This document shows, piece by piece, positions 293 through 62,260 of a stretch of 62,532 nucleotides of DNA (the first letter of the stretch is position 1; each line of letters opens with the position of its first letter). Made by a program: the position numbers and the translations under genes. Source of the stretch: a virus (taxonomy: Duplodnaviria; Caudoviricetes). Under the pieces are notes generated by a model. It saw only the letters and a program-made list of their open reading frames with translations. It did not search any database and had not been told where the DNA came from. The stretch covers positions 1 to 62,532 of the IMG/VR virus record IMGVR_UViG_3300048574_000038; one strand, given 5' to 3'.

Positions 293-965
293 GGGAACCT
301 AGAGATTGGCACGTCCCTAGGTTCCCGTAAAGTTTTTCATTCACATTACGGCGGCTCGTCTACACGTTTCATCGCTTTACTCCGTGTTTTCTTTAAACTG
401 TGTAACAGGAAATGCAGTTCTAGGTAAGTCTACCTAGTGTGGTCGTGAACTTTACTGGACAATTCCTAGCCCACGCTGGATTCACTAAGTCCTTACTAAC
501 CCTCTTCGTTAGTGCACGAACAAGGTGTTCATCTGTGAACCTCTATTGCTTTTTCAAGCAACCACCGTTAACGCTGATTGACCCTAACTCCCACGCATGG
601 GAGAGAGGCGGCTTTGCACCGTAGCTACTTTTCGTTTTGCAAGGCATCGAAAGCTTTTTCCGCATGAGTTGTACTGTCACTACAACCGTGGTTGGACACC
701 TCTTGTATGCAGCCTTTCGGGCATTAATGGCGGGACTGTCTTGTTGCAGTCTTTAGATACGCCATGCTGTGCTGATCTGGTATATTGTTGTTACACTCAA
801 CCAGTCTCCCTGTTTTCGTGCAGATTATTTCACCACACTTATCAGCACTACAAGACAACCATTGGCAATACGATCACTACTGTACTTCGTGACGGCTTAA
901 GACGCTTGTTAGAAACATACCTCTGCCTGTAGTTGAAAGGTTCATCTGTCGAATCCCACTTTCAA
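293..965 (-). ncRNA. Candidate large structured RNA A (about 670 nt)
   Basis: No credible CDS; continuous inverted repeats (293-302/317-326, 689-694/856-861, 701-707/849-855, 727-732/760-765, 769-776/841-848); GAAA tetraloops on the - strand at 546-561 and 707-724. Confidence 0.7.
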
Positions 966-992
966 AAGGTGGGACACAAGATGTGCCCCACT
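963..992 (-). terminator. Intrinsic terminator-like hairpin
   Basis: - strand GTGGGGCACA-TCT-TGTGTCCCAC followed by CTTTT, just after the stop of 1009..1716. Confidence 0.5.
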
Positions 993-1008
993 TGTTTGAA
1001 ATTAGGTA

Positions 1009-1716
1009 TTAGGCAGCCATGCCCTTGCCGGAGCCACGCGGCGGAACGATCTTCACGTTAGCAGGACGAGCCTTGCTGGCTTCTTCTGCTTGCTGTTCCA
1101 CAGCCTTTTCAGCTTCCTTCAGCTCATCACTGATGCCGGGGAGCATGCCGACAACGTAGTTGAGAACGCCCTCGATAGCAGCGTCCACATTGATGGCAGC
1201 ACCAGCTTCGAGGTAGATGGCCTTGATGCAGGCGCGGCCAACGAAGTCGAACTTCTTGGCACGTTCTTCATCACCCTGCTCACTGCAAATGCCCGCTTGC
1301 CGCAGCATGGCCGTGGCGAGAATGCCGAAGACCAGAGAGATAAAGCAGGTACGTGCTGTTTTCCAGAACTTGGACTCGTCGTGCCGGAAGTCATACAGAC
1401 GTGTGCCTTCCTCGGGCCGGAAGTATTTGTCGAAGATCTTCCAAATAAGGCCGCGAATAATCTTGGCCGTACCACGTTCAAGTTCTTCGACGCCCACGCT
1501 GGCAAAGACTTCTTTGCCCATGCGGTAAAGGACGAAGCCGTTGAGGACATCCTGTGCCTTGCCAGCGATATCGGAGGCTTTGTTCTTAAGCCTGCCGAAC
1601 CATCCGGCGTCTTTGATCGGAGCATCGTTGTCGTTGACGAGATTTTCCATATCCGCGCCCATCTGGTTGATGAACTCGTCGGTCATGTTCTTGGGCATTT
1701 CCTTCGTGTCTTTCAT
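1009..1716 (-). CDS. Hypothetical protein (235 aa) with a possible transmembrane segment
   Basis: Long ORF, GGGAG SD, strong GC3 codon bias. Confidence 0.8.
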   Translation of the reverse strand: MKDTKEMPKNMTDEFINQMGADMENLVNDNDAPIKDAGWFGRLKNKASDIAGKAQDVLNGFVLYRMGKEVFASVGVEELERGTAKIIRGLIWKIFDKYFRPEEGTRLYDFRHDESKFWKTARTCFISLVFGILATAMLRQAGICSEQGDEERAKKFDFVGRACIKAIYLEAGAAINVDAAIEGVLNYVVGMLPGISDELKEAEKAVEQQAEEASKARPANVKIVPPRGSGKGMAA

Positions 1717-1742
1717 AGTAACTCCCTACCTGAGTAAGATTG

Positions 1743-3680
1743 TTAGACGCGAGCCTTGGCGGCTTCAGCGCGGCGTTCGTGACGGTTCTTGCCTTTGCCC
1801 TTGTTCTTGCCAGAAGGCTTGGAAAGGACAACAGCCTTGTTGGCAGTGGCCTTGCTGATGGCTTCGCCGAGACTGTTGCCACTGGCCGCAGGCTTGGGAG
1901 CAGGGCCAACAGGAATGGCGGTACCGTTGCTGATGGCCGTGGCCTTTCTGTCAAAAGCGTTGAGCTTCAAACTGATGGTGGCGTAGTTCGTTTCGGCCTG
2001 CTGGAGATTGAACTTGGCATCTTCGAGAGCCGCTGCGGCATAAGGAGGAAGCTCACCAAGAGCGTCCTTGATTTTTTCGTTGTCCAAGGTGGTCTTGTCC
2101 ACAAGATCCTTCGCGGAAGTGACCTGCTGTTCGGCATCAAGAACTTCACGCAGAACAGCTTCTTCTTCGGCGGTAGCCTTGGCAGCTTCCTGCTTGGCCG
2201 TGTTGAAAGCTTTCACCGCAGCTTCACGCTGCTTGCGCAGGGCATCAGCGCAGGTGCCGCACATCCACGAGTTTTCGTACTTCACGGAGTCGGCAACGCC
2301 GGGGTAGTCATTGGCCATGCCTTCGGGCAATTTGGGCGGCTTGAGTTGGGACAGTCCGTTCTTCTTAAGGCCGGTCTTGCCGCACACGAGGCAAGAGTAT
2401 TTGTTGCCATTGCCGCACATTTCGCGAGTGATGGGCAGCTTTTCACCGCCGTTGTTTTCGTTGGTGGCGGAAATGTCAATGACCTTGGAGACACCTTCAC
2501 CGCCGTGCTGTTCGTTGTACACTTCCACGGTGCGTTCCCAGCTCTTCTGGATAATATCGGAGCCTTCCAGAACGTAGGTGTTCACCGCCGGGTCAAAGAT
2601 GGATTTGACCACAGGGATGCTGATGCACGGGATGCGAGTGATCGTGCCGTCGGCGTTTTGCACGTCCTTGTAGATCATGTCCTGCATCAGGTGCGGAGGA
2701 ACGTACGTGTGGACGCACTTGGGATCGTTCATCATGGTGGTGATGCGTTCGTGAATCATGCGGCGGGTGATCTGAAGAGGTTCCTTCACCGTGCCCACTT
2801 CGTAGCCGTACTGGACACCAACATACAAGCCAAGGGCGTCGTCGGTAGTGCGGTTCTGCAAATCCCAGTTGATGATCGCCGCTTCATCAAGAGTGGTATC
2901 TTTGCACAGAACTTCCTGAGGCCGTACCTGACCTTTAACGATTTCGCCATACCGAGAGTTGGGCCAGCGAACACACAGAAGAGCTTTGCCAGATGCCGCA
3001 GTAACGGTATCGATCTTACCGTTGCGTATGTCGTTGCTGATAACCGTAACTTCGTTTTCCGGCAGGCCATTGACATCGGTGATAATCACACGGTCACGGG
3101 TGGCATCCACGTTGATGGTGAGGTCGTTGACCTTAGCCTGCTGCATGCCGGGGATGGGGGCGACGGTCTTGTCGGCAAGGTTGATAACCATAGCCACGCC
3201 TTCGCCACCGGATTGCGTGTTGTAGAATTCGTCGTCGTTACCCCAACTGCGGTTGCGGTAGCCAAAGACGGAGCTTTGCGCTGCCTTCTCGGCGTAGTGC
3301 GCCACAATGGACTGCATAATGAGGGCAGGATCGGTGATGCCCTCCATGTCGCCGCCTTCCTTGAACTTCTTTTCGATGGCGCGGTCGTGCTTGAAGGTAT
3401 CCTTCAGCAGTTCGTGAACACGGAAAGCACTGGCCTTGAGGGCATTTTCGGCGGAAACACGCTGGAGGTCTGTGAGTTCAAAAGGATTGTTGGGGGACAG
3501 AGCAAAGACACTGGCGGCAAGAGCCGTACTGGCACGTTCCAGCGCCATGAGGTCGATGTTGCTGTTGACTTTGCCGACAACGATATCGGCGAAGGTGGTC
3601 TCCATACTGGAAGCTTTGGCTTCCGCAAGAGCTTTCTTCACCAACTCGTTCTGCATAAGACCAAGAATGTCGAAATGCAT
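1743..3680 (-). CDS. Hypothetical 645-aa protein with C-terminal Zn-ribbon and coiled coil
   Basis: AGGGAG SD; CLVC and CGTC motifs, Ala/Glu/Lys-rich helix, basic tail; strong codon bias. Confidence 0.85.
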   Translation of the reverse strand: MHFDILGLMQNELVKKALAEAKASSMETTFADIVVGKVNSNIDLMALERASTALAASVFALSPNNPFELTDLQRVSAENALKASAFRVHELLKDTFKHDRAIEKKFKEGGDMEGITDPALIMQSIVAHYAEKAAQSSVFGYRNRSWGNDDEFYNTQSGGEGVAMVINLADKTVAPIPGMQQAKVNDLTINVDATRDRVIITDVNGLPENEVTVISNDIRNGKIDTVTAASGKALLCVRWPNSRYGEIVKGQVRPQEVLCKDTTLDEAAIINWDLQNRTTDDALGLYVGVQYGYEVGTVKEPLQITRRMIHERITTMMNDPKCVHTYVPPHLMQDMIYKDVQNADGTITRIPCISIPVVKSIFDPAVNTYVLEGSDIIQKSWERTVEVYNEQHGGEGVSKVIDISATNENNGGEKLPITREMCGNGNKYSCLVCGKTGLKKNGLSQLKPPKLPEGMANDYPGVADSVKYENSWMCGTCADALRKQREAAVKAFNTAKQEAAKATAEEEAVLREVLDAEQQVTSAKDLVDKTTLDNEKIKDALGELPPYAAAALEDAKFNLQQAETNYATISLKLNAFDRKATAISNGTAIPVGPAPKPAASGNSLGEAISKATANKAVVLSKPSGKNKGKGKNRHERRAEAAKARV

Positions 3681-3697
3681 GTGTAACTCCCTTGTTG

Positions 3698-4184: not shown

Positions 4185-4206
4185 AGCCGTCTCCCTTGTA
4201 GCTAAG

Positions 4207-7107: not shown

Positions 7108-7127
7108 AATAGCTCCTTTGTTTTATT

Positions 7128-7483
7128 GGGCAGCCTTGCGCACGACTGCCCTAAAAACCAAGGATATTTTACGTTAATGAGTACCAACAAACTAGCAGGG
7201 AATTGCTAGACTTGGTAAATATCAGCCAACTGCTGTACATACAGAGTCCCAAACTCTGCGTTGCAACAGGCACAACACGGCGCATGGCACGTACACTAAT
7301 GTGTAGATAGCTGACTGTATTATGAATGTGGTGAACATGTGTTCCCATCCATCCCACAGCGGGGTAAGCCAGATACTAACACACTTGTACACGGCAGTAC
7401 GCATAATAGCTACTGCATACACAACCACTCCTTTGTTTTATGCAAGCCCCAACTCTAGGTCAGAGCTTGTATTAAAGCAAAGG
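7128..7483 (-). ncRNA. Possible structured RNA B or processing leader
   Basis: Hairpins GGGCAG/CTGCCC, ACCAA-CTAGCA/TGCTAG-TTGGT, CAGAG/CTCTG, GCAGTA/TACTGC and a long irregular stem at 7430-7483; ORFs here are unconvincing. Confidence 0.4.
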
Positions 7484-7519
7484 AATTGACCGAAGGGAAA
7501 CTAATTGACCGAAGGGAAA
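7484..7519 (+). repeat. Tandem 17-bp motif AATTGACCGAAGGGAAA (2 copies)
   Basis: Copies at 7484-7500 and 7503-7519; further copies at 10996-11012 and, inverted with 2 mismatches, at 9824-9840. Confidence 0.85.
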
Positions 7520-7528
7520 GGAAACAAG

Positions 7529-8224
7529 TTATGCCGCCTGCTTGTTAACCTGCAAGCAAGAGGCAATGGCCGCAACCACGCTTGCCATCATGGCGTTATT
7601 GTCGGCAACAGGAGAAAGCATTTTCACCACGTCTTCAAGAGGCTTGGGCAGAGGAGCCGCAGTACTGGAAGGCAGGTCAACGCCAAGCTCCTTTGCCTTC
7701 TTTTCAAGGCGAGAGAAGGAATCAAGAATGGCCTTCGCCTTGTCTTCCTGCGTCTTGGCGGCGTTCTTCGCTTCGCGTTCGGCCTTTTGTTCGGCCTTCA
7801 GGTTGTCGTACCACTTGCCCGCGCCAAGAACAGTGATGGCAATGGCGGACACAAAGGCCAGACATTCCTTGTCCACGTCAGACAGTTTGTTCGGGTCACG
7901 GCTGGACTCCCAAGCCTTGCCGCCGGACTTGTCCTTATAAATGGCCTGTGCGGCGCGGAAAGAGAAGACAACCTTCTTCTTGTCCTTGTCCCACATAACG
8001 GGAACGCCCTTGCGCGTCATGTACTCGCGCATGTAGGGCTTCATCTTGTCCGGCACGGCGGCAAGCAATTGGTTGCAGTATGTGGCGTTGCAATCACGAA
8101 TGGCACGTTCAACGCAGGGAAGCAGCAGGGTTTGCGCACCTTCCTGCATTTCCTTGACGGTTGCCGTGAACTTCGCCAGCTTGGAAACAAGATCACTTTC
8201 GCTCATAATGTACGCAGTGGCCAT
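7529..8224 (-). CDS. Early hypothetical protein (231 aa)
   Basis: GAGGAG SD; strong codon bias. Confidence 0.85.
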   Translation of the reverse strand: MATAYIMSESDLVSKLAKFTATVKEMQEGAQTLLLPCVERAIRDCNATYCNQLLAAVPDKMKPYMREYMTRKGVPVMWDKDKKKVVFSFRAAQAIYKDKSGGKAWESSRDPNKLSDVDKECLAFVSAIAITVLGAGKWYDNLKAEQKAEREAKNAAKTQEDKAKAILDSFSRLEKKAKELGVDLPSSTAAPLPKPLEDVVKMLSPVADNNAMMASVVAAIASCLQVNKQAA

Positions 8225-8253
8225 GGTGTATCTCCTCTGTATTAAATTGTTGT

Positions 8254-8269
8254 TGTTTCATGTGAAACA
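8254..8269. promoter_or_regulatory. parS-like palindrome
   Basis: TGTTTCATGTGAAACA, one mismatch from the chromosomal parS consensus TGTTTCACGTGAAACA. Confidence 0.75.
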
Positions 8270-8286
8270 TTGTTTAGTGACTAACC

Positions 8287-8334
8287 AAAAATAAAAACCG
8301 CTAGGTAAGACCTTTTGTCAAGGATACCTAGCGG
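8287..8334 (-). terminator. Intrinsic terminator
   Basis: CCGCTAGGTA...TACCTAGCGG stem followed by TTTTTATTTT on the - strand. Confidence 0.75.
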
Positions 8335-9014
8335 CTTGTATTTTGTTTTGTCTTTCCTGCCGTATCGTTGCTTCGCTAGAAACATCGTCTACGGCTACCT
8401 TTGAATCAAACGGATTTCGCCAGCCCATACTTTCGTTGCTGGTATTACACAAGCCCGTGTACTTGTGCTTTTACTGGCTATCTTTACAAGTAACCCCTTT
8501 TGCCTTTTATCAAGGCCAGCCTAGTGTTTGTGAAACACTAAACCGCGTTTCGGTTACTTGCTGGAAGCGTTGTTTCATGTGAAACGCATATTGTTTTCTC
8601 CGTAAAGAAAACTAACGTTCACTTAAAACGTACTTCCATCACGCAATCCCATTATGCTTATGCAAGGGCAATCCTTGCCATACTTGGGATATGCTATCCG
8701 CCGTATTGTCTCTTTATATGGCGCAATCTTGCGCGAGACTATCCCACTGCATTACGCTTTCTGAGTCTGCGCAATGTGCCAGTACAGCAGGAAGGCGGGC
8801 CAGTAACTAAGCATGTGCCTAGCTTGGCGGTCTTTACGGCAATGCAGTATTATGAGCGCTGCACCGTGTGACAATTCACACGCTAAGTATAGGGAAAAGT
8901 TAATCTAGTTAACCCTTTCGTTAATCCCTAACTTTTCGCCTTTTGTATCTTATGTGCGGCTTGCGCTGCACAACGTACTAAGGCTTGCGCTTGGTACTTT
9001 CGTACCTTCTCTTG
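8290..9014 (-). ncRNA. Candidate large structured RNA C (about 720 nt), bounded by promoter and terminator
   Basis: Starts just after the promoter at 9021-9049 and ends at the terminator; GGTAC-GAAA-GTACC and GC-GCAA-GC GNRA hairpins on the - strand; dense stems; no - strand ORF of 60 aa or more. Confidence 0.72.
8571..8586. promoter_or_regulatory. parS-like palindrome (second copy)
   Basis: TGTTTCATGTGAAACG. Confidence 0.7.
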
Positions 9015-9020
9015 ATAGTT

Positions 9021-9049
9021 ACCTTACACGAAAGCAAGGAACTTGTCAA
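9021..9049 (-). promoter_or_regulatory. Sigma70-type early promoter
   Basis: TTGACA-17bp-TAAGGT with TG upstream of the -10 and an AT-rich UP region. Confidence 0.75.
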
Positions 9050-9118
9050 GAAAAAACTTTATTTAATTTTCAGCGGGCTTGCGGCGCTTTGAGCTGCCAG
9101 CTACTGCCCTATGTGAAA

Positions 9119-9147
9119 ATCCTACTCTTTTGCGGCGGGCTTGTCAA
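9119..9147 (-). promoter_or_regulatory. Sigma70-type early promoter
   Basis: TTGACA-17bp-TAGGAT, A-tracts upstream. Confidence 0.75.
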
Positions 9148-9234
9148 CTACTTTTTTCACTTTTCAAAAACTTTCTTTTCTTGTATTTGCGGGTCAAATC
9201 TACTCTAGGTTGAGTGCCTACCCTGTTAGAAAAG

Positions 9235-9263
9235 AGATTAAAGAAAACTGGAAACAATGTCAA
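9235..9263 (-). promoter_or_regulatory. Sigma70-type early promoter
   Basis: TTGACA-17bp-TAATCT, AT-rich upstream. Confidence 0.72.
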
Positions 9264-9321
9264 GTAAAATTTTTGGGCTTGTCTTATTTAATGTAGCACA
9301 AGCCCTAAGCTACTGATATTG

Positions 9322-9807
9322 TTAGCTTTTTTCTTCTTGTCTTTTGCAATAGCGGCGAGCTATCACAAGATTGCATGCCCGCAAATGCCTTGCCTGCCGG
9401 ACATTATCCGCAGATACAGTGACCGTCATTGCGAGATTGTCACTTGTTTGGCCTATGTATATGGCCTTGCTGCGGCCTTTGCCTTGTGCAACGTCCATCC
9501 ACAAGGCGTTGCTGATTGTCTTGGCCTTGGATGCAATGCGGCAACCATTGTTTTTATACGTTCGCCGCGTGTTCTTTGCCGGTAATGTGATAACGTCCAC
9601 GCCCTCGATTGTTTCCACAATACACTTGCTCACATAGCGTTGCAATTTGTCGGCCTTGCGTTGTGCCTTGTCCTGCCATTCTTTGCCTTGCGCCATGAGC
9701 CGCATGGCCTCTCCGGCTAACTGCCTTGCTTCCTTGGCGGATTTGCCTTGCTTGCGATATAGCTTTATCAGCTTTTTGATATAGCCAGCCCTTTCGATTT
9801 TGTCCAT
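9322..9807 (-). CDS. Basic early hypothetical protein
   Basis: GAGGAGG SD before MDKIERAG; Lys/Arg-rich. Confidence 0.75.
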   Translation of the reverse strand: MDKIERAGYIKKLIKLYRKQGKSAKEARQLAGEAMRLMAQGKEWQDKAQRKADKLQRYVSKCIVETIEGVDVITLPAKNTRRTYKNNGCRIASKAKTISNALWMDVAQGKGRSKAIYIGQTSDNLAMTVTVSADNVRQARHLRACNLVIARRYCKRQEEKS

Positions 9808-9912
9808 TTTTTGCCTCCTCACTTTTCCCTTTAGTCAATTGTTGTCTATATAGATTGTTCTACCATAGCAAAGCACAAACTATACAGGCTTGTGCCTTGG
9901 CTGATAGAACAG

Positions 9913-10074
9913 CTAATAGTTGACAGTATGATTTGCACCGGGCATAAAATCGTATGCCCAATCTATGCCAGCACGCCATGCCCGCCAATGGGAGCCAAAA
10001 CATACAGATGCCGTGCTAAACCGCATATCGTTATGGGATACTGCCATGACGATACAAGAAAAGAAATTATCCAT
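9913..10074 (-). CDS. Small early protein (53 aa), absent from the ORF track
   Basis: GAGGTAGG SD, MDNFFSCIVMAV...TVNY*. Confidence 0.5.
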   Translation of the reverse strand: MDNFFSCIVMAVSHNDMRFSTASVCFGSHWRAWRAGIDWAYDFMPGANHTVNY

Positions 10075-10170
10075 TACCTACCTCGCAAGTTAATTGTTAA
10101 TCCAATCCAAGGCGCAAATATTCCAGCTACTTGCGCCTTGTATGATTCAACAATCGTAATTCCAGCGGCC

Positions 10171-10335
10171 TTACTCCGCATTGCGTCTGGTAATGTTGTC
10201 TATTTCAATCTGGATTGCCCTTTCTTCGGCCTCTTCACGCTCCTCGGCAAGCCGCCTGCGTTCTTCGGCTGATTGTTCAACCCGTTGTGACCATTCCAGC
10301 AAGAGAGATATGACATAATCGTTTGTATTGCTCAT
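10171..10335 (-). CDS. Small acidic helical early protein
   Basis: AGGGAG SD before MSNTND. Confidence 0.65.
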   Translation of the reverse strand: MSNTNDYVISLLLEWSQRVEQSAEERRRLAEEREEAEERAIQIEIDNITRRNAE

Positions 10336-10899
10336 GGTATTTGCTCCCTTTAATCGCAAAGGTTATTAAGCAGCAAGCTAGCTGATTGCATAGCCAAGTT
10401 TGCCTGAAACATACTCGCGCATTCATTGTAACGGCGTTGCGTCCAGCTATACGTTGTGTGCATGTGCAAGCGTTGCATACGGATTGCTCCAAGAGACATT
10501 GTTTCGAGGCGGGCTTGATCGTAGCGTTCGCGTCCGTAGTATGTGGCCATGTGCATTCTCCTGATGCCTTGCGGCGGTTAAGGTGAACTTGAACTGAAAA
10601 CAATTTAGCAAAGTTTTAAAAGAAAGTAAAGTTTTAATAAAATCAATTAGTTAGCTTTAAGTTCTTGTTGGAGCCTATGCTTCTAGCGAAGCGACGATGG
10701 TACTTGTCTTTCCATTGGTATCGTATTGCAGACTATGTGCCGATTCCGGGTAATTTTTGGGTGCAATTTCGCTTGTTTACGTCCAAATACCTGTAATTAT
10801 TGACAAAAAGTCACAAAAGTGAAGAATTTCACAAGGGGGAGAGGGGTTATAGGGGTACCAGTGGACACGAGGGTGACGGCTACGGGTGCAAGGAAAGCC

Positions 10900-11330
10900 A
10901 TCTCTGTGTATATTTATAAAATTTAGATTGATATTTATATCACCTCTATGTATATTTACTAAAGTTAGCTGTATATTTACAAAACTTAGATAAATAATTG
11001 ACCGAAGGGAAAAAGAAAAGGCCACCAATCTTTTCCTGATAATTCGGAGAAAACTGATGGCCAGTAGTGGGTATGAGAAGTACCAAAGGTACCATGAAGT
11101 TCTTTAAGCTACTTAAAGTAGTTTAATTATTTATAGTACTATATGTAGATAATAGCCTAGAACATATAGTATTATTATAATAAAATATAATATATTAAAG
11201 TATTTTAGTACTTTATGTAGATAAATTAACTATAAGTACTTGACATACTTATAGTATGTATTATAAGTACTTTAAGTTATTTAAGATAAATTTAAAGATC
11301 ATAATAGCCCGCCTTAAGTTTCTTAATTTC
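10900..11330. other. AT-rich non-coding region with short repeats and palindromes (candidate genome end or origin)
   Basis: TGTATATTTA x3 (10907, 10949, 10970), AGTACT/AAGTACTT palindromes, G-rich tract at about 10834-10890 just before. Confidence 0.5.
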
Positions 11331-11406
11331 CGAACTACGGTTATACTGCTTTTTGTTTTTAAAGAAGATAGTTGGTTGAACTGCCCTTTTACGAACTTTA
11401 ATATCT

Positions 11407-12393: not shown

Positions 12394-12675
12394 ATGGACG
12401 TTTCTACAGTACTTGAGTTCTTTAAAGACATAAGCCCGCTGATAAATACGGCTAGTTTCGCTACATTTTTGATTTTGTATTCAAAAATACGGGACATAGA
12501 GGCTACAATAGCACTGCTTGATGGCAGAGTTACGAGATATCTTGAAAGAACAGTAACTGTAGAGCAAGATCTTAAAGAAATTACTTCTTTTGTCTACTCA
12601 CACTACAATCTTACTCCCGAAAATGCTTTGAAATATCTTCATAGGCATAACGGGTGTCAATCTGTAGAAAAATAA
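12394..12675 (+). CDS. Small membrane/coiled-coil protein
   Basis: N-terminal hydrophobic helix followed by heptads; first gene of the late block. Confidence 0.6.
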   Translation: MDVSTVLEFFKDISPLINTASFATFLILYSKIRDIEATIALLDGRVTRYLERTVTVEQDLKEITSFVYSHYNLTPENALKYLHRHNGCQSVEK

Positions 12676-12720
12676 ACATAAAAGTAGCAGTTGTCAAACT
12701 TAATTAGATAGGTATATACT

Positions 12721-13077
12721 ATGAGTAAGTCAATATCCGAAATACGAGATCTTGCTTTAGATCTAAAAGACCAATTTAAAGTACCCTGCGCTATGGCTGC
12801 TTCAAAAGCGCCCACTGGTGTTGGGAAAAGTAAGAATGACGTGCTTGTGCAGCGACTTGCAATGGAGTTTAATCACGATCCGGTGCAAGAGTTAGTTAAA
12901 CTCGCGCAGAGTAATCGCATTAGTCCAGATCTTAAAGCTAAAATCAATATGGAATTTTTGCAGTATTATCTTCCGAAGCTTCGTGCCATTGATACGAACC
13001 CGAATCAAGGCGAAGTTATTCAGATTAATATTGTAAACCCCCACGACATTGTGGATGCTGAAATAATAGACAGATAA
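12721..13077 (+). CDS. Putative terminase small subunit
   Basis: Position upstream of TerL; KNK-type segment (VGKSKND), DP..EL helices, YYLPKLRAI motif, C-terminal beta strand. Confidence 0.6.
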   Translation: MSKSISEIRDLALDLKDQFKVPCAMAASKAPTGVGKSKNDVLVQRLAMEFNHDPVQELVKLAQSNRISPDLKAKINMEFLQYYLPKLRAIDTNPNQGEVIQINIVNPHDIVDAEIIDR

Positions 13078-40087: not shown

Positions 40088-40309
40088 TCATACTTTAAAC
40101 TTAGGAGAAGCAATGCATCGTTTAAATGCATTCTTCTTGTTTTGAAGTTGACTACGTTCATCACGTCCTTCGCCAACTGCACCAGAAGCATTGTGAATGC
40201 AGCGTACACCAGAGTCAGTTTTGTTTTGCTTCTGTCCGCCTTTACCTCCAGCCCTAAAAGTCTGAATTGTAAAGTCGTCTCTGGTTACTGAAAATAGGAG
40301 TTCTCGCAT
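40088..40309 (-). CDS. Stand-alone RF-1 (GGQ) peptidyl-tRNA hydrolase domain protein
   Basis: FRAGGKGGQKQNKTDSGVR.IH..SG......ERSQLQNK..A. Confidence 0.88.
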   Translation of the reverse strand: MRELLFSVTRDDFTIQTFRAGGKGGQKQNKTDSGVRCIHNASGAVGEGRDERSQLQNKKNAFKRCIASPKFKV

Positions 40310-45990: not shown

Positions 45991-46245
45991 GGCCCACCCG
46001 AAACGCGGATAACGAGTGGGCCACAATGGTCGATTATTGATAGGAACGCTTAACTAGGGTGTCGTCTGTTAAGCTGTGTTTCCTTACGGTCGTTCCGGCA
46101 AAGCCGACAACTGGTGTAGCGACATGTAAGTACCCACTAACTGTAGAATAGTTCCTAATAGTCCGGCGCATTACACAGCCACCCTCTCGGTTCAAGTTTA
46201 GTAGCGCTGCCACTTGAAGCCACCTCTAGAAGCTAAAGAGAGGGA
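45991..46245. ncRNA. Candidate structured RNA D (about 255 nt)
   Basis: GGCCCAC/GTGGGCC; three-way junction TAGGAAC/GTTCCTA, GCTTAAC/GTTAAGC, CTTAC/GTAAG; CCCTCTC/GAGAGGG enclosing TTCAAGT/ACTTGAA. Confidence 0.65.
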
Positions 46246-46754: not shown

Positions 46755-46928
46755 GCGTCGGGAATATCTCTAGGTTACGCCAATAACCATAACCGGATAG
46801 ACGCTCCTCGCCGGGGCCAAAGGCTGGCCAACACCGTCACATTTTGTACGTAGTGCACTCTTTCGAGGCACGGGTAGAGTAGTTGTCTAGAATGTGACCA
46901 ACTCCACAACTATGGCGTTATCTCTACC
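46755..46928 (-). ncRNA. Candidate double-pseudoknot RNA E (about 175 nt)
   Basis: Stems GGTAGAG/CTCTACC and TAGTTGT/ACAACTA; crossing GTCACATT/AATGTGAC and ACGCCA/TGGCGT; CTC-GAAA-GAG tetraloop on the - strand. Confidence 0.72.
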
Positions 46929-47972: not shown

Positions 47973-47993
47973 ACCTTACCTCAGATAAAAATA

Positions 47994-48618
47994 ACACTAG
48001 CTAGAGAACAATCTGTAGCAGCAAGCCATTTCAGGCTTTCCATTACATAATCACTCCCTAGCTAGTGTCTAGACCCAAGGTGCACCCGATGTGCAATGTT
48101 ACCACCTACGTGGCTGCAACCAGTTGGTAGAGACTGGCTGGAAATTTAACACGGTACCGTTTGCGATCGTACTCGTTGGTATGCCTGTACTATTACTAAC
48201 AACGATTTAGCTAACAACAGTACTTAGTTGTTGGTATGCTTCCCAACAACACTCGGATAGTGTTATCGACGAGACACATTATTAAGGTTGTGTAACCCAA
48301 ACACAGCAGTGCGTCCCTTGCGTGGAGGGACATACACCTACACATGTACGATATGATAATCGGTTAGCTGTTGATCACCGAGGTACAAGAGCTAGCGAAC
48401 TCTCTTTTAGCAGCCGTGTACCAGTAGGCTGGTGGATCTTACGCTATATCTATGATGTATCCACTACCATCACAGTTTGAACATTGGTGCGGGGCTTCGT
48501 TACTTCCCCTATCTTCTCCGAAGAATTTCTGGAATAGCACCATCGTCCGGCTGATACATTCAAACGAAGTCCAACCCTCACAGCTTTGGTTGGTTGCACT
48601 GTAGCCTATTATCTAGGC
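47994..48618 (-). ncRNA. Candidate large structured RNA F (about 625 nt)
   Basis: No ORF of 60 aa or more within it; more than a dozen stems, e.g. ACACTAGCTAG/CTAGCTAGTGT extended by several G-U pairs on the - strand, GTTTGAA/TTCAAAC enclosing TGGTGC/GCACCA. Confidence 0.72.
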
Positions 48619-48620
48619 AG

Positions 48621-50945: not shown

Positions 50946-51032
50946 ACTACCTCAATAAAAATACGGATAATGCTATGCCAAAAGGTAATGCACTATCCGT
51001 ACTAGTCAAGGTACTATAAATACCGAAATGTG

Positions 51033-51109
51033 TGGCAGCAGCGCTAGGATTCGAACCTAGGAATAACCGAGTCAAAGTCGGTTGTGTTAAACCACTTCAC
51101 CACGCTGCT
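51033..51109 (-). tRNA. tRNA-Gln(UUG)
   Basis: Acceptor AGCAGCG/CGCTGCT, anticodon arm ACCGA-CTTTGAC-TCGGT, T arm CTAGG-TTCGAAT-CCTAG, encoded CCA. Confidence 0.92.
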
Positions 51110-51111
51110 AC

Positions 51112-51510
51112 ATCTGGTAGGATAACCTGTTGTGGACTTTTGCTGGATCACACTCCTTCCAGTTATCCTACCAGTTCACCAAGCACAACGCTTGGATAAA
51201 TTCCTCCACCTAACTAGCGCCCTCACGTTACTAGTTACTAGTCAGATGGAGGCACGGCCCTTACAAGGAGGGAGAGTAAGGAGGCTTGCCGTGTAATTTG
51301 TTGGCTACCCAGACCGCCGAGACAGGGTAGCCATTCGTCCATGCGAGGGAGTAGGCACACGACGAAAATTTGTGGCACTAGCAACATGCTACGAGGCTAT
51401 CCTCCTTGTCGATTATACATGTCACTGTGCCAGTAGTTCAGTTTTAACAGCCAGTTATTATCAAACGCCGTACTGCGGTGTCCGGAACATACCGAACTAA
51501 CTGAACAATA
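51112..51510 (-). ncRNA. Candidate structured RNA G (about 400 nt) filling the tRNA-Thr/tRNA-Gln spacer
   Basis: Eight back-to-back hairpins; + strand A-C mismatches become G-U pairs on the - strand (51203-51252, 51373-51432); complementary loops. Confidence 0.8.
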
Positions 51511-51513
51511 AAA

Positions 51514-51589
51514 TGGAGCTAGCGAAGGGACTTGAACCCATAACCCCCTGATTACAAATCAGGCGCTCTGCCAATTGAGCTACGCTAGC
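51514..51589 (-). tRNA. tRNA-Thr(UGU)
   Basis: GCTAGCG/CGCTAGC acceptor, CCTGA-TTTGTAA-TCAGG anticodon arm, GTTCAAGTC T loop, CCA. Confidence 0.93.
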
Positions 51590-51599
51590 AAAAGAAATT

Positions 51600-51684
51600 T
51601 GGTGCGAGAGGTGGGATTTGAACCCACACGCCTTTCAGCAGCGGGGTTTAAAGCCGCCCTGTCTACCGTTCCATACACTCTCGC
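51600..51684 (-). tRNA. tRNA-Leu(UAA)
   Basis: GCGAGAG/CTCTCGC acceptor, loop TTTAAAC, long variable arm, GTGGG-TTCAAAT-CCCAC, A discriminator, CCA; C-C mismatch in the anticodon stem. Confidence 0.85.
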
Positions 51685-52554
51685 TTAATCTTTATCGTAT
51701 CTGGCACGTACAAATCTCGGGTGTCGTAGTGCTTTGCCTGTTTTGCCTTTAAAGGCTACTTCGATAATCTTCGGTAGATCCTCGCGGTGTTCCCACCAAT
51801 GACGAAGCTGTTCATGTGTGGCTTTACCCGGCGCTACAATACATGTATCGCACAAGAACTTACCTACGCAACCAGTAAGCTTTCCTTTACCTTCAACTAC
51901 ACCCGTAACAAGCAAATCTTCTGTGTGATGGATAAGACCCTTAACCCAAAGTTTGCAAGACTTCTTACCCTGCTCATACAAGGAGTCACGCTTTTTAAAT
52001 ACGACACCTTCCCATTTACTGTGGGCAATCACATTCTTTACAAAGCTACGTATCTTATCAGGTGTATGTTTTGCCTCCATAGCAAAAGCAACAACACAAT
52101 ATACGGGTTCTGTTGAAAGAATCTCTGCGTCCGCCATAGCCATCCATAATGTATCCTTGCGCACATTATAAGGCATGTTATTGACAACGATGTCAAAAAT
52201 TTGATAAGTTAGCTTTGTTGTGTCTACGTTTACTTCGCGAAACAGTTGTTCCGAGGCATCTTTAAATTCTGTTCCACAAACTTCCCCATCAAAAACTACA
52301 GGAAACGGTATATGCTTTTGGATTCTTTTACAGACCTCTTTAAGGAAGTCGAAATTTTTGTATACTGTGCCGGTGCGAGAATAACACTCGTCTGTGTTAG
52401 GATCATACAAGCAGCGAACGCCGTCGAATTTACGCTCATATACCCATTCTTCCGGACGAAAATCTGGAGAATCTAAAAGTTTGTCTAAATCAGGATGTGG
52501 CTGGAGCGTTTTAACAGGTTTCGTTGCTTTATCTTTAATTTTACTCACATCCAT
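51685..52554 (-). CDS. ATP-dependent DNA ligase
   Basis: E.KFDGVR, FDGE, IFDI, EGVVFK, W.K, LRHPRF..R.DK. Confidence 0.92.
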   Translation of the reverse strand: MDVSKIKDKATKPVKTLQPHPDLDKLLDSPDFRPEEWVYERKFDGVRCLYDPNTDECYSRTGTVYKNFDFLKEVCKRIQKHIPFPVVFDGEVCGTEFKDASEQLFREVNVDTTKLTYQIFDIVVNNMPYNVRKDTLWMAMADAEILSTEPVYCVVAFAMEAKHTPDKIRSFVKNVIAHSKWEGVVFKKRDSLYEQGKKSCKLWVKGLIHHTEDLLVTGVVEGKGKLTGCVGKFLCDTCIVAPGKATHEQLRHWWEHREDLPKIIEVAFKGKTGKALRHPRFVRARYDKD

Positions 52555-56726: not shown

Positions 56727-56737
56727 AAACTAATACC

Positions 56738-56837
56738 TTTAAAGTTTATTAAGCTTAATATATATATATATATATATATTAAAGTTATTTAAAGCTAATA
56801 TTATATATATATATATATATATATTAAAGTATTTAAG
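56738..56837. repeat. Duplicated (TA)10-11 microsatellite unit
   Basis: TTAA(TA)10TTAA palindrome at 56755-56782 and (TA)11TTAAAGT at 56802-56830. Confidence 0.9.
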
Positions 56838-57105
56838 TTAGTTTAATAAACTAAATTTTCTTTGCTTCTTTCTTTTGTTCGAAGCTTTTTAGTTCAAAAA
56901 CCAACGAAAACACAACCTCGCAGCAGACCCTAGTTGGGAATTGCCCAAAGTGCGTTCATAAAAGATAGGGTCAAATGCTCAATAGACAAGGTGGGAAGTT
57001 GAAAGTAACTCCTGCACAATCAACTTCCGCATCTTGTTTGCGTGGGATTCTTCATGGGCTAGGCCACAAGCCCCTTTAGCAGGGTAACAAGTTCCGATAA
57101 TCACC

Positions 57106-58832: not shown

Positions 58833-58890
58833 ACTGGTAGTTCCTTAAAAGTATTCAGTACTTCAAATAAGCACTCTCCTTATAAGTATG

Positions 58891-59256: not shown

Positions 59257-59270
59257 AGTTACCTCCTACC

Positions 59271-60395: not shown

Positions 60396-60477
60396 ACTTA
60401 CCTCCCGTAAACATTGTTATATGTTAAGGAACCTATAAGGCAGGATACACTATCCTAACTTATTGAATTACTTAACA

Positions 60478-60509
60478 AAAGGCGGGAAGCTTTTACACTC
60501 CCCGCCTTT
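60478..60509 (-). terminator. Intrinsic terminator
   Basis: - strand AAAGGCGGGG...CCCGCCTTTTGTT. Confidence 0.7.
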
Positions 60510-60515
60510 ATTCAC

Positions 60516-60944: not shown

Positions 60945-60983
60945 GATGTAATTCTCCTCGCATGTTTGATGTGTTGATGAAAG

Positions 60984-61010
60984 AAAGGGGCGTATTGTTA
61001 GTACGCCCCT
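60984..61010 (-). terminator. Intrinsic terminator
   Basis: - strand AGGGGCGTA...TACGCCCCT-TTCTTT. Confidence 0.7.
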
Positions 61011-61022
61011 AGGTTTGTGCAG

Positions 61023-61268
61023 TTACGCCTTGGGTTCAGCCTTGCGGAAGAACTTGCGGTACAGGCCGTAGACAACGAGGCCCACAATGGCCGACACGGG
61101 GGTGTAGCCCGCGGCGGTCTTCACGCCGGAGGGCATTTTGTCCATAACGGAGGCCGGGGTCACGTCGGAAACGGTGGTCTTGAGAGCCTTGAAGCCCTTG
61201 TCGGCCAGATTCTTCAGAGTGGTGGTGCCTTCAGCGGTAACGACGGGAGTGGTGGGATTCTCGGACAT
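61023..61268 (-). CDS. Small C-terminally anchored membrane protein
   Basis: AAGGA SD before MSENPTT; C-terminal TM plus basic tail. Confidence 0.65.
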   Translation of the reverse strand: MSENPTTPVVTAEGTTTLKNLADKGFKALKTTVSDVTPASVMDKMPSGVKTAAGYTPVSAIVGLVVYGLYRKFFRKAEPKA

Positions 61269-61392
61269 GGTGTTTTCCTTATTGTCGTTGAGGTTAGGTT
61301 GTTCTGTTTCTGTTACCAAATTACTATCCAAAGAGCCTGCGGCTAAAGCCGGGCCACCCTTGGTGAAACGTCCAGCTTTGTCGCGAGCAGGC

Positions 61393-61680
61393 TTAGCTTC
61401 CCGCTTTGGGTGTTGCTTTTTCGGCATCTGCCTTCCTGTTCTTGAGTTCAAGCATTTTGGCAGACGCCGCAGTTGATGCCGCGTTGTGTATAGCGTCAGA
61501 CTCTTCCTGTGTGGAAGCTGATGTCTCAATGTGGCAATACATTTTGCCGTCTGTAGCATTTACCGCTTTGTCGCGGTGTTTTTTGGCCTTCTCGGCAAAA
61601 ACTACAACACCAAGACCGTATAAACCTGCTAGCGCAGCATACCCAACGCTTTTCAGCACGTTCTTCCAGTAAGGACTCAT
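61393..61680 (-). CDS. Small membrane protein
   Basis: GAGG SD; N-terminal TM. Confidence 0.6.
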   Translation of the reverse strand: MSPYWKNVLKSVGYAALAGLYGLGVVVFAEKAKKHRDKAVNATDGKMYCHIETSASTQEESDAIHNAASTAASAKMLELKNRKADAEKATPKAGS

Positions 61681-61682
61681 GG

Positions 61683-61913
61683 TTAACCTCGCACGAGGAT
61701 TTGTACGCGGACACTAGCGGAGTCAAGTTTCCGAACTTGCGATTCTGGAACAATGACATTCACACCGTCTTCGCGAAGGATGTAGTTAAAGCTCATGCCA
61801 TTCATGCGGCAAGAGCTTATGTATATCCCTTTTACAGTGCGACCATGCTCGTCTGTGTATTCACAAGGACGAGTAGGCCACGTTTCCACAGACACCAGAG
61901 TTTTCACATCCAT
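61683..61913 (-). CDS. Small beta-barrel-like protein
   Basis: AAGGA SD before MDVKTLV. Confidence 0.6.
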   Translation of the reverse strand: MDVKTLVSVETWPTRPCEYTDEHGRTVKGIYISSCRMNGMSFNYILREDGVNVIVPESQVRKLDSASVRVQILVRG

Positions 61914-61980
61914 AATTTTTCCTTTGTTAAGGTTTAAGAAAGACAAGAAAAGTATTGCCCGGAGCAGCACAGTTAATACA

Positions 61981-62260
61981 GGTGATATTGAGCAGTACTA
62001 CTTAGTTACTGACCCTCTCCGCAGACAAGGATTTCACAGTTTTTCCTGAACTCGTATTGCCTCCGTCGTCGCTTCGCTCATGTGAACGTAGTGAGCACTA
62101 GAAGCGTAGAAGCAGATCACCATAACTGGAGCTAATCGAGATGTTTTATCGACCGTTAAGTCCTCGTATGTGCGAACTCTGGCCAGAGCGCGTCTTATTT
62201 AACGGGTGTCAACCTACTATTAGGAGCTACCTAACTTCGGCGGAAGACGTTATCTCTGCG
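61981..62260. ncRNA. Candidate structured RNA H (about 280 nt)
   Basis: GGTGAT/ATCACC, CGCTTC-GCTCA/TGAGC-GAAGCG, CCGTTAA/TTAACGG crossed by CGTCTT/AAGACG, long-range CGCAGA/TCTGCG. Confidence 0.55.

What the first reader, a model, noticed from the sequence alone, without database searches (positions are those of the whole stretch)
293..62260. Phage genome with a suite of seven to eight large, densely folded non-coding RNAs
Seen: most large intergenic gaps in the - strand arm (293-965, 7128-7483, 8290-9014, 45991-46245, 46755-46928, 47994-48618, 51112-51510, 61981-62260; over 3 kb together) lack a credible ORF and are tiled with helices, junctions and crossing pairings. GNRA loops and G-U polarity mostly indicate the - (transcribed) strand. 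Known: large phage RNAs such as GOLLD and ROOL occur, often beside tRNAs, but typically as one element per locus. I found no group I, group II, RNase P or tmRNA signatures. Inference: this is an RNA-based host-takeover or scaffold toolkit, possibly of new RNA classes, in a phage that also encodes translation-related functions (GGQ domain, tRNAs).
Basis: partly seen in the sequence, partly recalled or inferred. Interest (0 to 1): 0.92.

Follow-up and report, generated by a model that had tools for sequence, protein, structure and literature searches.

The report
Three structured phage RNAs, not eight
Of eight gene-free stretches in this 62.5-kb phage genome, three fold far better than chance; the best is a ~725-base RNA unit behind the early promoters, and the RNA at the same position in related phages has a fold conserved in evolution.

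Summary
The window is a complete 62,532-bp podovirus-like phage contig. All eight gaps really lack credible ORFs: stops of all three kinds occur in nearly every frame. None matches Rfam, and they do not resemble one another.

Only three fold better than every length-matched coding control:
- 8250-9020(-), z -7.9
- 47973-48620(-), z -5.8
- 51110-51513(-), z -6.9

The other five are ordinary intergenic DNA.

The strongest gap is a complete transcription unit by sequence. Three tandem TTGACA promoters (9263-9021) are followed by about 725 nt without an ORF and an intrinsic terminator (8335-8287). The first early gene comes next.

Related phages have the same layout. In one subgroup the 742-835-nt leader shows compensatory changes at 68 of 192 pairs, against 23 ± 3 in shuffles, and it is not in Rfam. 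I could not show that the window's RNA is homologous to it.

Verdict: the suite of seven to eight RNAs is overcalled. One large immediate-early RNA is well supported, and two further candidates are specific to this lineage. No function was tested.

The parts
9235..9263 (-). Promoter-like site P1: TTGACA, 17-nt spacer, TAATCT
   Evidence: Read from the sequence. The TTGACA site is listed. It is one of a cluster of three TTGACA sites on the - strand (9263, 9147, 9049).
9119..9147 (-). Promoter-like site P2: TTGACA, 17-nt spacer, TAGGAT (10 of 12 matches)
   Evidence: Consensus scan; sequence.
9021..9049 (-). Promoter-like site P3: TTGACA, 17-nt spacer, TAAGGT. The inferred start of the RNA is near 9014.
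   Evidence: Sequence; site list. The start site is inferred, not shown.
8287..9014 (-). ORF-free, strongly folded immediate-early RNA, about 725 nt counted from P3 and longer from P1 or P2
   Evidence: z -7.86 for 8250-9020(-). The 200-nt windows reach z -6.9. The 771-nt coding controls range from -1.4 to -3.7. No ORF has a ribosome-binding site. No Rfam match.
8287..8335 (-). Intrinsic terminator: an 11-bp G+C-rich outer stem with a 4-bp inner stem (8335-8298), then UUUUUAUUUUU (8297-8287)
   Evidence: Local fold of 8285-8362(-): dG -27.8 kcal/mol, z -5.5 with 200 shuffles. Sequence.
8254..8269 (.). Palindrome TGTTTCACATGAAACA between the terminator and the ATG at 8224. A second copy with one mismatch lies inside the RNA at 8571-8586.
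   Evidence: Pattern search: these are the only two sites with 3 or fewer mismatches. As RNA the hairpin is weak (dG -4.7). Its role is unknown.
7529..8224 (-). First early gene after the RNA unit (231 aa, no known family)
   Evidence: ORF. No Pfam or PHROG hit. Six homologues exist in public data. A homologue lies at the same position in G001.
51110..51513 (-). 404-nt structured spacer that abuts tRNA-Thr on its 5' side and tRNA-Gln on its 3' side. It folds as a row of about eight hairpins.
   Evidence: z -6.94 on - (100 shuffles) against -3.08 on +. No tRNA is found by ARAGORN at an 80% threshold. No Rfam match. tRNA positions come.
47973..48620 (-). 648-nt ORF-poor structured stretch upstream of the endolysin gene. 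It ends in a roughly 33-pair branched-free long hairpin (48069-47993) followed by UAUUUUUAU.
   Evidence: z -5.81 on - against -3.02 on +. Hairpin dG -44.4 kcal/mol. The relatives have only about 85-200 nt at this position.
48439..48543 (-). Possible 34-aa ORF with a CxxCxGxG motif inside the previous stretch
   Evidence: PHROG hits are weak, E 0.02-0.05. The ribosome-binding site is weak. Doubtful.
293..965 (-). Ordinary ORF-free gap
   Evidence: z -3.0 on - and -1.9 on +. Of the 8 coding controls of 771 nt, 2 are as low.
7128..7483 (-). Gap with moderate folding. Two copies of the 17-nt motif AATTGACCGAAGGGAAA (given on the + strand) lie at its upstream edge, 7480-7519.
   Evidence: z -4.11 for 7108-7528(-). 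Of 18 controls of 420 nt, 2 are at or below -3.9. Repeat family D12.
45991..46245 (-). Ordinary short intergenic spacer
   Evidence: 200-nt windows give z -1.4 to +1.0.
46755..46928 (-). Ordinary short intergenic spacer
   Evidence: z -2.0 in one 200-nt window.
61981..62260 (-). Ordinary intergenic spacer with a TTGACA site at 62212
   Evidence: 200-nt windows give z -0.2 to +1.0. Site list.

Best explanation
The phage does not carry seven or eight large RNAs. It carries one well-supported RNA and two candidates.

(1) The main element, 9014 to about 8290 on the - strand. This is an immediate-early non-coding transcription unit. Three tandem host-type promoters with perfect TTGACA -35 boxes lie about 100-115 nt apart. 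They drive an RNA of about 725 nt that is heavily base-paired and has no ORF. The RNA ends at a strong intrinsic terminator about 65 nt before the first early gene.

I infer that this RNA is made in large amounts as soon as the genome enters the cell. I also infer that RNA polymerase reading through its terminator supplies the early genes downstream, because no promoter is visible between the terminator and the ATG at 8224. On this reading the element is both a discrete stable RNA and a gate on early transcription.

Shown: the sequence signals, the exceptional folding, the same layout in related phages, and a covariation-proven fold for the leader of one related subgroup. Inferred: that the RNA is transcribed, its ends and abundance, any action in trans, and the read-through.

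(2) 51110-51513(-). A 404-nt row of hairpins sits flush between tRNA-Thr and tRNA-Gln. It would be released by the enzymes that trim the tRNAs.

(3) 47973-48620(-). A structured stretch ends in a long hairpin with a U-rich tail just ahead of the endolysin gene.

The remaining five gaps are ordinary promoter, terminator and spacer DNA.
For: Folding against matched controls:
- 8250-9020(-): z -7.86. 47973-48620(-): z -5.81. The eight 771-nt coding controls range from -1.4 to -3.7.
- 51110-51513(-): z -6.94. The eighteen 420-nt controls range from +0.7 to -4.6.
- Two of the three favour the transcribed strand: -6.9 against -3.1, and -5.8 against -3.0.

Transcription-unit signals:
- Three TTGACA sites at 9263, 9147 and 9049. 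This is one of only two such clusters on the - strand (sequence; P2 scores 10 of 12).
- The terminator has dG -27.8 kcal/mol and an 11-nt U-rich tail.

The same layout appears in relatives:
- G001 (DNA polymerase 55% identical) has a terminator, three TTGACA sites 109-125 nt apart, about 500 nt without an ORF (z -4.2), a terminator of dG -30.8, and then the homologue of the 231-aa gene.
- G005 (46% identical) has three TTGACA sites, a 742-nt ORF-free leader and a long terminal hairpin before its first gene.

The fold is real in the G005 subgroup (6 contigs):
- 192 predicted pairs, with 97.4% of cells paired against 88.5% in shuffles.
- 68 pairs show changes on both sides, against 23.1 +/- 3.3 in shuffles (0 of 500 reach 68) and 4-14 when partners are slid.
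- Among the five closer lineages, the 3' 385 nt is 92-97% identical, where the adjacent gene is 78-93%.

Contigs of relatives cover the window's RNA (run X2). Substitutions are 64 in 783 nt there, against 32 in 591, 26 in 376 and 105 in 645 in the flanking genes.

Non-coding status.
Against: - There is no covariation test for any of the window's own three elements. The close relatives (DNA polymerase 63-97% identical; 231-aa protein 55-99%) exist only in collections I could not fetch.
- The window's RNA shows no detectable similarity to the leaders of G001 or the G005 group. nhmmer finds nothing. The covariance model R1 gives 5-7 bits at best, and does so on both strands. The positional analogy may therefore hide unrelated RNAs.
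- For 8250-9020 the two strands fold equally well (-7.9 and -7.5). The strand assignment rests only on promoter and terminator orientation, and a DNA-level role is not excluded.
- The promoter scan as a whole is at chance level: 20 sites found against 16.7 expected. The -10 boxes are imperfect.
- z-scores for stretches over 300 nt rest on 20 shuffles.
- Of the four substitutions listed inside the RNA, two keep the predicted pair (G-U to G-C, and G-C to G-U). One breaks its pair unless the partner also changed. One lies in an unreliable long-range pair. This settles nothing.
- One X5 contig joins 8269 to 10679, which suggests a variant without the unit. Only 20 letters lie on the shorter side, which the tool flags as unreliable.
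- The retrieved relatives lack elements (2) and (3).
- Element (3) may hold a 34-aa ORF.
Confidence: 0.55

Rival explanations
1. The 8290-9014 element is purely a cis-acting leader or attenuator of the early operon, not an RNA with a job of its own. On this reading its fold and terminator set how much transcription reaches the early genes. It might do so by processive antitermination or by a protein that binds the two UGUUUCACAUGAAACA hairpins. Alternatively, its long hairpins are RNase III processing sites like those of T7 early transcripts.
For: - No promoter-like site lies between the terminator and the ATG at 8224, so the downstream genes need read-through.
- The palindrome occurs exactly twice, once inside the RNA and once after the terminator.
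- In the G005 subgroup the leader ends in a 31-bp hairpin without a clean U-tract, directly before the ribosome-binding site. That looks more like a processing or attenuation site than a terminator.
Against: - At 500-835 nt with 190 or more pairs, it is far larger than known attenuators, riboswitches or antitermination RNAs (their sizes are recalled, not tested here).
- The 3' domain of the G005-type leader is more conserved than the gene it precedes, including long invariant loops. That suggests a specific partner.
- The window and G001 both end the unit with canonical terminators of dG -28 to -31 kcal/mol.
Confidence: 0.3
2. The three strongly folding gaps are DNA-level or decaying sequence, such as a replication origin, a packaging or recombination site, or the remains of lost accessory genes and mobile elements. 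On this reading the hairpins are by-products or simple terminators, and no functional RNA exists.
For: - 8250-9020 folds equally well on both strands.
- The retrieved relatives lack gaps 47994-48618 and 51112-51510, which sit where gene content varies.
- One contig in run X5 appears to lack 8270-10678 (weak).
- The window's own elements have no covariation data.
Against: - The promoter-to-terminator layout recurs at the same syntenic place in G001 and the G005 group.
- The G005-type leader covaries strongly and has many invariant G-U pairs, which would be A-C mismatches on the other strand.
- Two of the three gaps fold much better on the transcribed strand.
- The AT-rich repeat regions that look like origins or genome ends lie elsewhere, at 10.6-11.4 kb and 56.7-57.0 kb.
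Confidence: 0.12
3. One reading: all seven or eight gaps are functional large RNAs that form a toolkit. On this reading folding energy is simply a poor detector for five of them.
For: - All eight gaps are ORF-free.
- Some real RNAs do not stand out by z-score (general knowledge).
- 7108-7528 has z -4.1, and 293-965 ends in a 13-bp hairpin.
Against: - Five gaps are indistinguishable from coding controls.
- G001 is tightly packed where the window has gaps 45991, 46755 and 47994.
- The gaps share no sequence with one another and none matches Rfam.
- Gaps of 174-280 nt are normal for promoter and terminator regions.
Confidence: 0.03

Closest known systems
GOLLD and ROOL, the large ornate RNAs often found in phages and prophages near tRNA genes (PMC12286853 and PMC5737381: search listing and abstracts only)
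   Same: They are large (over 500 nt), heavily structured and non-coding, are carried by phages and have no known function. The 51110-51513 element also sits among tRNA genes.
   Different: No match to any Rfam 15 model, even at E<=10 on the isolated gaps. The main element is tied to the early promoter cluster, not to tRNAs. Multimer formation was not tested.
The early region of coliphage T7: tandem host promoters A1-A3 near the genome end, an untranslated leader, and RNase III sites before the first gene (recalled from general knowledge; no call)
   Same: - Three tandem host-type promoters point inward.
- They lie near what is probably the genome end: the terminal repeats of G001 map next to this region.
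- An untranslated stretch with strong hairpins comes before the first early gene.
- The replication module is T7-like: primase, helicase, family A DNA polymerase, ligase, exonuclease and endonuclease I.
   Different: - The untranslated RNA is much longer, about 725 nt after the last promoter.
- It is far more structured than coding sequence.
- It ends in a canonical terminator in the window and in G001.
- In one subgroup its sequence and fold are conserved more strongly than the first gene.
- I did not find a phage RNA polymerase gene among the proteins scanned; not every ORF was scanned.
Processive antitermination RNAs: the put sites of phage HK022 and the nut/boxB sites of lambda (recalled; no call)
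   Same: The RNA elements are transcribed just downstream of early promoters and upstream of terminators. A short hairpin motif is repeated here, in two copies of UGUUUCACAUGAAACA.
   Different: Those elements are tens of nucleotides long, not 500-835. There is no sequence or model comparison available here. Antitermination was not tested.
The stable RNAs (species 1 and 2) encoded within the tRNA gene cluster of phage T4 (recalled; no call)
   Same: The 51110-51513 spacer lies flush between two tRNA genes on the same strand. It would be co-transcribed with them and cut out by tRNA-processing enzymes.
   Different: It is 404 nt long and folds as about eight hairpins. Beyond the tRNAs themselves it has no similarity to any of 50,697 phage records. 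Processing has not been shown.
The candidate structured RNAs (csRNAs) predicted from IMG/VR intergenic regions (PMC10690425: passages read)
   Same: They have the same kind of evidence, covariation in phage intergenic regions, and come from the same source collection as the G005-type leader.
   Different: That survey reports motifs of 29-151 nt (mean 67). An RNA of 750-835 nt could appear there only in pieces.

Membership tests
Any Rfam 15 family (including GOLLD, ROOL, group I and II introns, RNase P, tmRNA, 6S) | Match to the family's covariance model at or near its gathering score | tested here: not met
   The whole window at gathering thresholds gives only 3 tRNAs. At E<=5 nothing falls in the gaps. 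The three strong gaps searched alone at E<=10 give only miRNA-type noise at 14-20 bits, far below the thresholds.
GOLLD/ROOL-like large phage RNAs | Typical context: next to tRNA genes in a phage | tested here: met
   This holds only for 51110-51513, which lies between tRNA-Thr and tRNA-Gln. It is a contextual trait, not a defining one.
G005-type early-leader RNA (alignment A3 and model R1, defined here) | Position: downstream of tandem TTGACA promoters and upstream of the first early gene | tested here: met
   Window. G005 group. G001.
G005-type early-leader RNA (alignment A3 and model R1, defined here) | Match to the conserved 163-position core (model R1, 49 pairs) | tested here: not met
   No hit with default filters in the window or G001. 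With filters off the best score in the window is 5.4 bits (E 0.14), on the + strand; the best hit on the RNA strand is 5.2 bits, and hits on both strands score about equally. G001 reaches 7.1 bits.
G005-type early-leader RNA (alignment A3 and model R1, defined here) | Nucleotide similarity | tested here: not met
   nhmmer at E<=1 (81 loci) or E<=10 (G001) finds nothing when the window's gaps are searched against the 81 loci and G001. It also finds nothing when the leaders of G005 and G001 are searched against the window.
Independent non-coding transcription unit (promoter, RNA, intrinsic terminator) | Promoter consensus upstream and a G+C-rich hairpin with a U-tract downstream, on the same strand, with no ORF between | tested here: met
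   These are sequence signals only.
Independent non-coding transcription unit (promoter, RNA, intrinsic terminator) | A discrete transcript with those ends | not testable with these tools
   Only assembled contigs could be laid, and these cannot show ends, strand or level.
T7-type early promoter cluster and leader | Tandem host promoters near the genome end that enters the cell first | tested here: inconclusive
   The three tandem sites are present. Nearness to the end is inferred from two observations. In G001 the contig ends, which IMG/VR classes as direct terminal repeats, lie next to the syntenic region. In the window an AT-rich repeat block sits at 10.6-11.4 kb.
tRNA-cluster stable RNA (T4 species 1 and 2 type) | Encoded between tRNA genes on the same strand, with no terminator or promoter between | tested here: met
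   The spacer abuts the tRNAs on both sides. No cryptic tRNA lies in it.
tRNA-cluster stable RNA (T4 species 1 and 2 type) | Excised and stable in vivo | not testable with these tools
   No RNA data exist for this region.

The most novel reading that the evidence does not exclude
A whole clade of roughly 60-kb podoviruses, found in IMG/VR contigs and with near relatives in wastewater- and bioreactor-labelled runs, makes a large structured RNA of 500-835 nt as the first product after its early promoter cluster. The window's 725-nt RNA, the 500-nt RNA of G001 and the covariation-proven 742-835-nt RNA of the G005 group would then be fast-diverging members of one class.

That class would act in trans at the very start of infection. 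It might serve as a decoy or inhibitor for a host defence or a host RNA-binding machine. It would also gate early transcription through its terminator.

In addition, the window's lineage would have gained two more large RNAs: the hairpin array flanked by tRNAs and the element ahead of the endolysin gene.
Probability: 0.2. Interest if true: 0.85.

Novelty: new variant of a known kind. Interest (0 to 1): 0.6.

Why it matters
Very few natural RNAs above 500 nt have conserved folds, and each new class has been informative.

Its covariation is unusually dense for only six sequences. It sits at a defined and biologically suggestive place, directly behind the early promoter cluster and ahead of the first early genes. 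The window holds the positional counterpart with the strongest folding signal of all.

If these are one class, they would suggest that some phages begin early transcription with an RNA product where T7 has a protein gene. They would also give RNA structural biology and phage-host conflict research a concrete target.

The report also corrects the finding. Eight ORF-free gaps do not mean eight RNAs. Coding sequence in this genome already gives z-scores of -1 to -4, so raw foldability overstates the case.

Tried and rejected
Stop-codon reassignment. I rejected this because all three stop types occur in nearly every frame of the gaps.

A shared repeat family or mobile element. I rejected this because there is no similarity among the gaps and no repeat family covers them.

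Close relatives in the annotated phage collection. Gaps 293-965 and 8250-9020 have none. For 51000-51700 only the tRNAs match. The large terminase subunit is at most 37% identical to anything there.

Single-protein scans of viral contigs.
- Endolysin: one distant locus.
- The 645-aa protein: none.
- DNA polymerase: none.

The family of the 231-aa protein. It has only six members, none of which I could fetch. Profile scans of metagenome contigs and viral contigs returned only the G001 type. L086 is 100% identical to G001 across the leader, so it adds no variation.

An exact 26-nt stretch of the RNA in genome contigs gave 0 hits.

Model R1 found 0 hits in 52 DNA-polymerase loci. Those loci mostly do not reach the early region, so this says little.

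Cryptic tRNAs in the 404-nt spacer. None appears at an ARAGORN threshold of 80%. At 60% only spurious calls appear, on the + strand or with introns.

Sequencing runs.
- 20 runs from 11 studies hold 5-14% of the sampled words of 7500-9900. I laid four of them.
- The one definite RNA run (X20) gave a single 211-nt contig at 8047-8257 and nothing over the RNA. Lack of cover is not evidence either way.
- Most of the variant table was cut off (621 rows not shown), so I could not take covariation from it.

A shared nine-letter word between the window's RNA and the G005-type core, together with a similar helix-junction context, was seen by eye and in the 5.2-bit alignment. About two such word matches are expected by chance between sequences of these lengths, so I do not count it.

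The supplements of PMC10690425 were closed.

Full report
WHAT THE WINDOW IS. The window is a whole contig of 62,532 bp with about 43% G+C. Genes run on the - strand from about 1 to 12.3 kb and on the + strand from 12.4 to 40 kb. The + strand arm includes the large terminase subunit at 13421-14848 and a 2,086-aa protein with an LPD38 domain. Genes run on the - strand again from 40 to 62.5 kb. That last arm holds a T7-like replication and lysis set:
- primase, DnaB-like helicase, family A DNA polymerase and ATP-dependent ligase;
- ThyX, an exonuclease, a GH108 endolysin and endonuclease I.

Three tRNA genes (Leu, Thr, Gln) lie at 51033-51684 on the - strand.

CHECKING THE OBSERVATION. The eight gaps are truly ORF-poor. 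Stops of all three types occur in nearly every frame, so no alternative genetic code opens them (ORF lists). Rfam 15 finds only the three tRNAs at gathering thresholds. It adds nothing in the gaps at E<=5 over the window or at E<=10 on the three best gaps alone. The gaps share no sequence with one another.

Folding was tested against dinucleotide shuffles and, more importantly, against coding sequence of the same genome, because the background is not zero.
- 200-nt windows outside the gaps: mean z -0.93 and -1.05, sd 1.4, 5th percentile -3.3, n=190 per strand.
- Eight 771-nt coding segments: z -1.4 to -3.7.
- Eighteen 420-nt coding segments: z +0.7 to -4.6.

Three gaps lie beyond every control:
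- 8250-9020(-): z -7.86
- 47973-48620(-): z -5.81
- 51110-51513(-): z -6.94

Five gaps do not:
- 293-965: z -3.0
- 7108-7528: z -4.1
- 45991-46245, 46755-46928 and 61981-62260: 200-nt windows give z +1.0 to -2.0

The antisense strand folds clearly worse for two of the three strong gaps (-3.1 and -3.0). For 8250-9020 it does not (-7.5).

GNRA hairpins are no more frequent in the gaps (2.3 per kb) than in the genome (2.1 per kb), although they favour the - strand 8 to 2.

THE MAIN ELEMENT. The following reads 9320 to 8200 on the - strand.
- Gene 9322-9822 ends in a hairpin.
- Three perfect TTGACA boxes follow at 9263, 9147 and 9049, each with a 17-nt spacer and a TAnnnT-like -10 box (TAATCT, TAGGAT, TAAGGT). 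This is one of only two triple clusters on that strand.
- From about 9014 there are roughly 725 nt with no credible ORF.
- These end in a hairpin of dG -27.8 kcal/mol followed by UUUUUAUUUUU (8335-8287).
- About 65 nt later come a ribosome-binding site and the ATG at 8224 of a 231-aa protein of no known family.
- I see no promoter between the terminator and that ATG.
- A palindrome, TGTTTCACATGAAACA, occurs exactly twice: inside the RNA and just after the terminator.

RELATIVES. DNA polymerase homologues at 97, 84, 80, 63 and 59% identity exist, but only in collections I could not fetch. A profile scan of IMG/VR gave 80 loci. Their best identities were 55% (one group) and 46% (a second group).

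G001, a complete 58.9-kb contig of the first group, is syntenic with the window over most of its length.
- It lacks the ligase, tRNA and spacer cassette.
- It has only about 95 nt where the window has the 625-nt gap before the endolysin gene.
- It is tightly packed elsewhere.
- Upstream of its homologue of the 231-aa gene it has the same layout as the window. A terminator is followed by three TTGACA boxes 109-125 nt apart. About 500 nt without an ORF come next (z -4.2), and then a terminator of dG -30.8.

G005, of the second group, also has three TTGACA boxes, a 742-nt ORF-free leader (z -3.3) and a long terminal hairpin before its first gene. Its second gene is weakly similar to the 231-aa protein (E 4e-4 over 56 aa).

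COVARIATION IN THE SECOND GROUP. Six contigs carry homologous leaders of 742-835 nt. RNAalifold predicts 192 pairs.
- 97.4% of cells form standard pairs, against 88.5% in shuffles.
- 68 pairs have changes on both sides, against 23.1 +/- 3.3 in shuffles. None of 500 shuffles reaches 68.
- Sliding the partners by 1-3 columns leaves only 4-14 such pairs.
- Helix 7 keeps perfect pairing with three different sequences.

Among the five closer lineages the 3' 385 nt is 92-97% identical, while the adjacent gene is 78-93% identical. The 5' half is only 57-93% identical but stays paired. Many invariant G-U pairs fix the strand. Rfam has no match. A strict core motif occurs in 9 IMG/VR contigs, and the three new ones add little diversity. 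This is a genuine large structured RNA.

IS THE WINDOW'S RNA THE SAME CLASS? I cannot show it.
- nhmmer finds nothing in either direction.
- A covariance model of the 163-position conserved core (R1) finds nothing with default filters.
- With filters off it gives only 5-7 bits, about equally on both strands.

The link is therefore by position and architecture only.

NEAR RELATIVES SEEN INDIRECTLY. Runs labelled wastewater or bioreactor metagenome hold relatives at 80-99% identity.
- One contig in run X2 spans 8388-9170 with 64 substitutions in 783 nt.
- The flanking genes show 32 in 591, 26 in 376 and 105 in 645.
- The RNA region is thus no less conserved than its neighbours, but this rests on single contigs.
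- Only four substitutions inside the RNA were listed, and they are uninformative.

THE TWO OTHER CANDIDATES.
- 51110-51513 abuts tRNA-Thr and tRNA-Gln with no spare bases. It folds as a row of about eight hairpins with stems up to 16 bp. It holds no cryptic tRNA and matches nothing in 50,697 phage records. It would be released by tRNA processing.
- 47973-48620 ends in a long hairpin (dG -44.4) with a U-rich tail just before the endolysin ribosome-binding site. It may hold a doubtful 34-aa ORF with a CxxCxGxG motif.

Neither element is present in the four complete relatives that I fetched.

MECHANISM, WITH ODDS. My best reading, at 0.55, is that the early unit is a discrete, abundant immediate-early RNA whose terminator also meters transcription into the early genes. 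A purely cis-acting leader or attenuator is the main rival (0.3). A DNA-level element or decayed sequence is less likely (0.12). The full eight-RNA toolkit is unlikely (0.03).

Transcription, RNA ends, stability and any trans action are all inferred.

COMPARISON WITH KNOWN SYSTEMS AND NOVELTY. The element resembles GOLLD and ROOL in kind but fails their models. In placement it resembles the T7 early promoter cluster and leader, but it is much larger and more structured. The tRNA-flanked spacer recalls the T4 stable RNAs.

A published IMG/VR survey reports motifs of only 29-151 nt (PMC10690425, passages read). My two literature searches turned up no description of a large RNA in an early leader, but they were narrow.

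I rate the finding as a new variant of a known kind, with interest 0.6.

Noticed in passing
window 40088-40309 (-): A 73-aa protein with an RF-1 (GGQ, peptidyl-tRNA hydrolase) domain, Pfam E 5e-17. It is a very short stand-alone version at the start of the right-hand - strand arm.
   Followed up: partly
window 10600-11400: An AT-rich block (33% G+C) with 42-nt direct repeats and other repeats (D5, D14, D17). Laid contigs seem to be cut at 11167-11204. In G001 the contig ends, which IMG/VR classes as direct terminal repeats, map to the same syntenic place. This is probably the genome terminus or an origin.
   Followed up: partly
window 56727-56978: An AT-rich stretch (32% G+C) with (AT)n runs and 36-41-nt repeats, upstream of the helicase gene (D7, D16). 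It may be a replication origin.
   Followed up: no
window 7480-7519 and 10992-11012: Three copies of AATTGACCGAAGGGAAA (D12). Two are in tandem right after the 231-aa gene. On the - strand they read as a C(UUCG)G mini-hairpin followed by TCAATT. They may be a binding site or a terminator-like element.
   Followed up: no
window 12660-12733 and 62212 (-): Three TTGAC sites about 37 nt apart lie in the divergent region between the two arms. The word TTGACACCCGTTA is shared by 12660 and 62212. This may be a second promoter class.
   Followed up: no
window 51600-52554 (-): The ATP-dependent DNA ligase gene, the three tRNAs and the 404-nt spacer form a cassette. It is absent from the syntenic relatives G001, G002, G004 and G005.
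   Followed up: partly
window 8269 to 10679 (run X5): One contig joins these two points, which would remove the RNA unit, its promoters and the genes up to 10.68 kb. The left breakpoint is the palindrome at 8254-8269. Only 20 letters lie on the shorter side, so the joint is unreliable.
   Followed up: no
L116 1778-2546; L100 and L089 just downstream of the leader: L116 is a mosaic: the first ~190 alignment columns of its leader are like G004, and the rest (about 580 nt) is like G005. G008 and G002 carry an extra small ORF inserted between the leader's terminal hairpin and the first gene.
   Followed up: no
window 48439-48543 (-): A 34-aa ORF with a CxxCxGxG zinc-finger-like motif lies inside one of the non-coding gaps. 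Its PHROG hits are weak, E 0.02-0.05.
   Followed up: partly
window 32706-38966 (+): A 2,086-aa protein in the virion module with an LPD38 domain near its C-terminus, Pfam E 6e-38.
   Followed up: no
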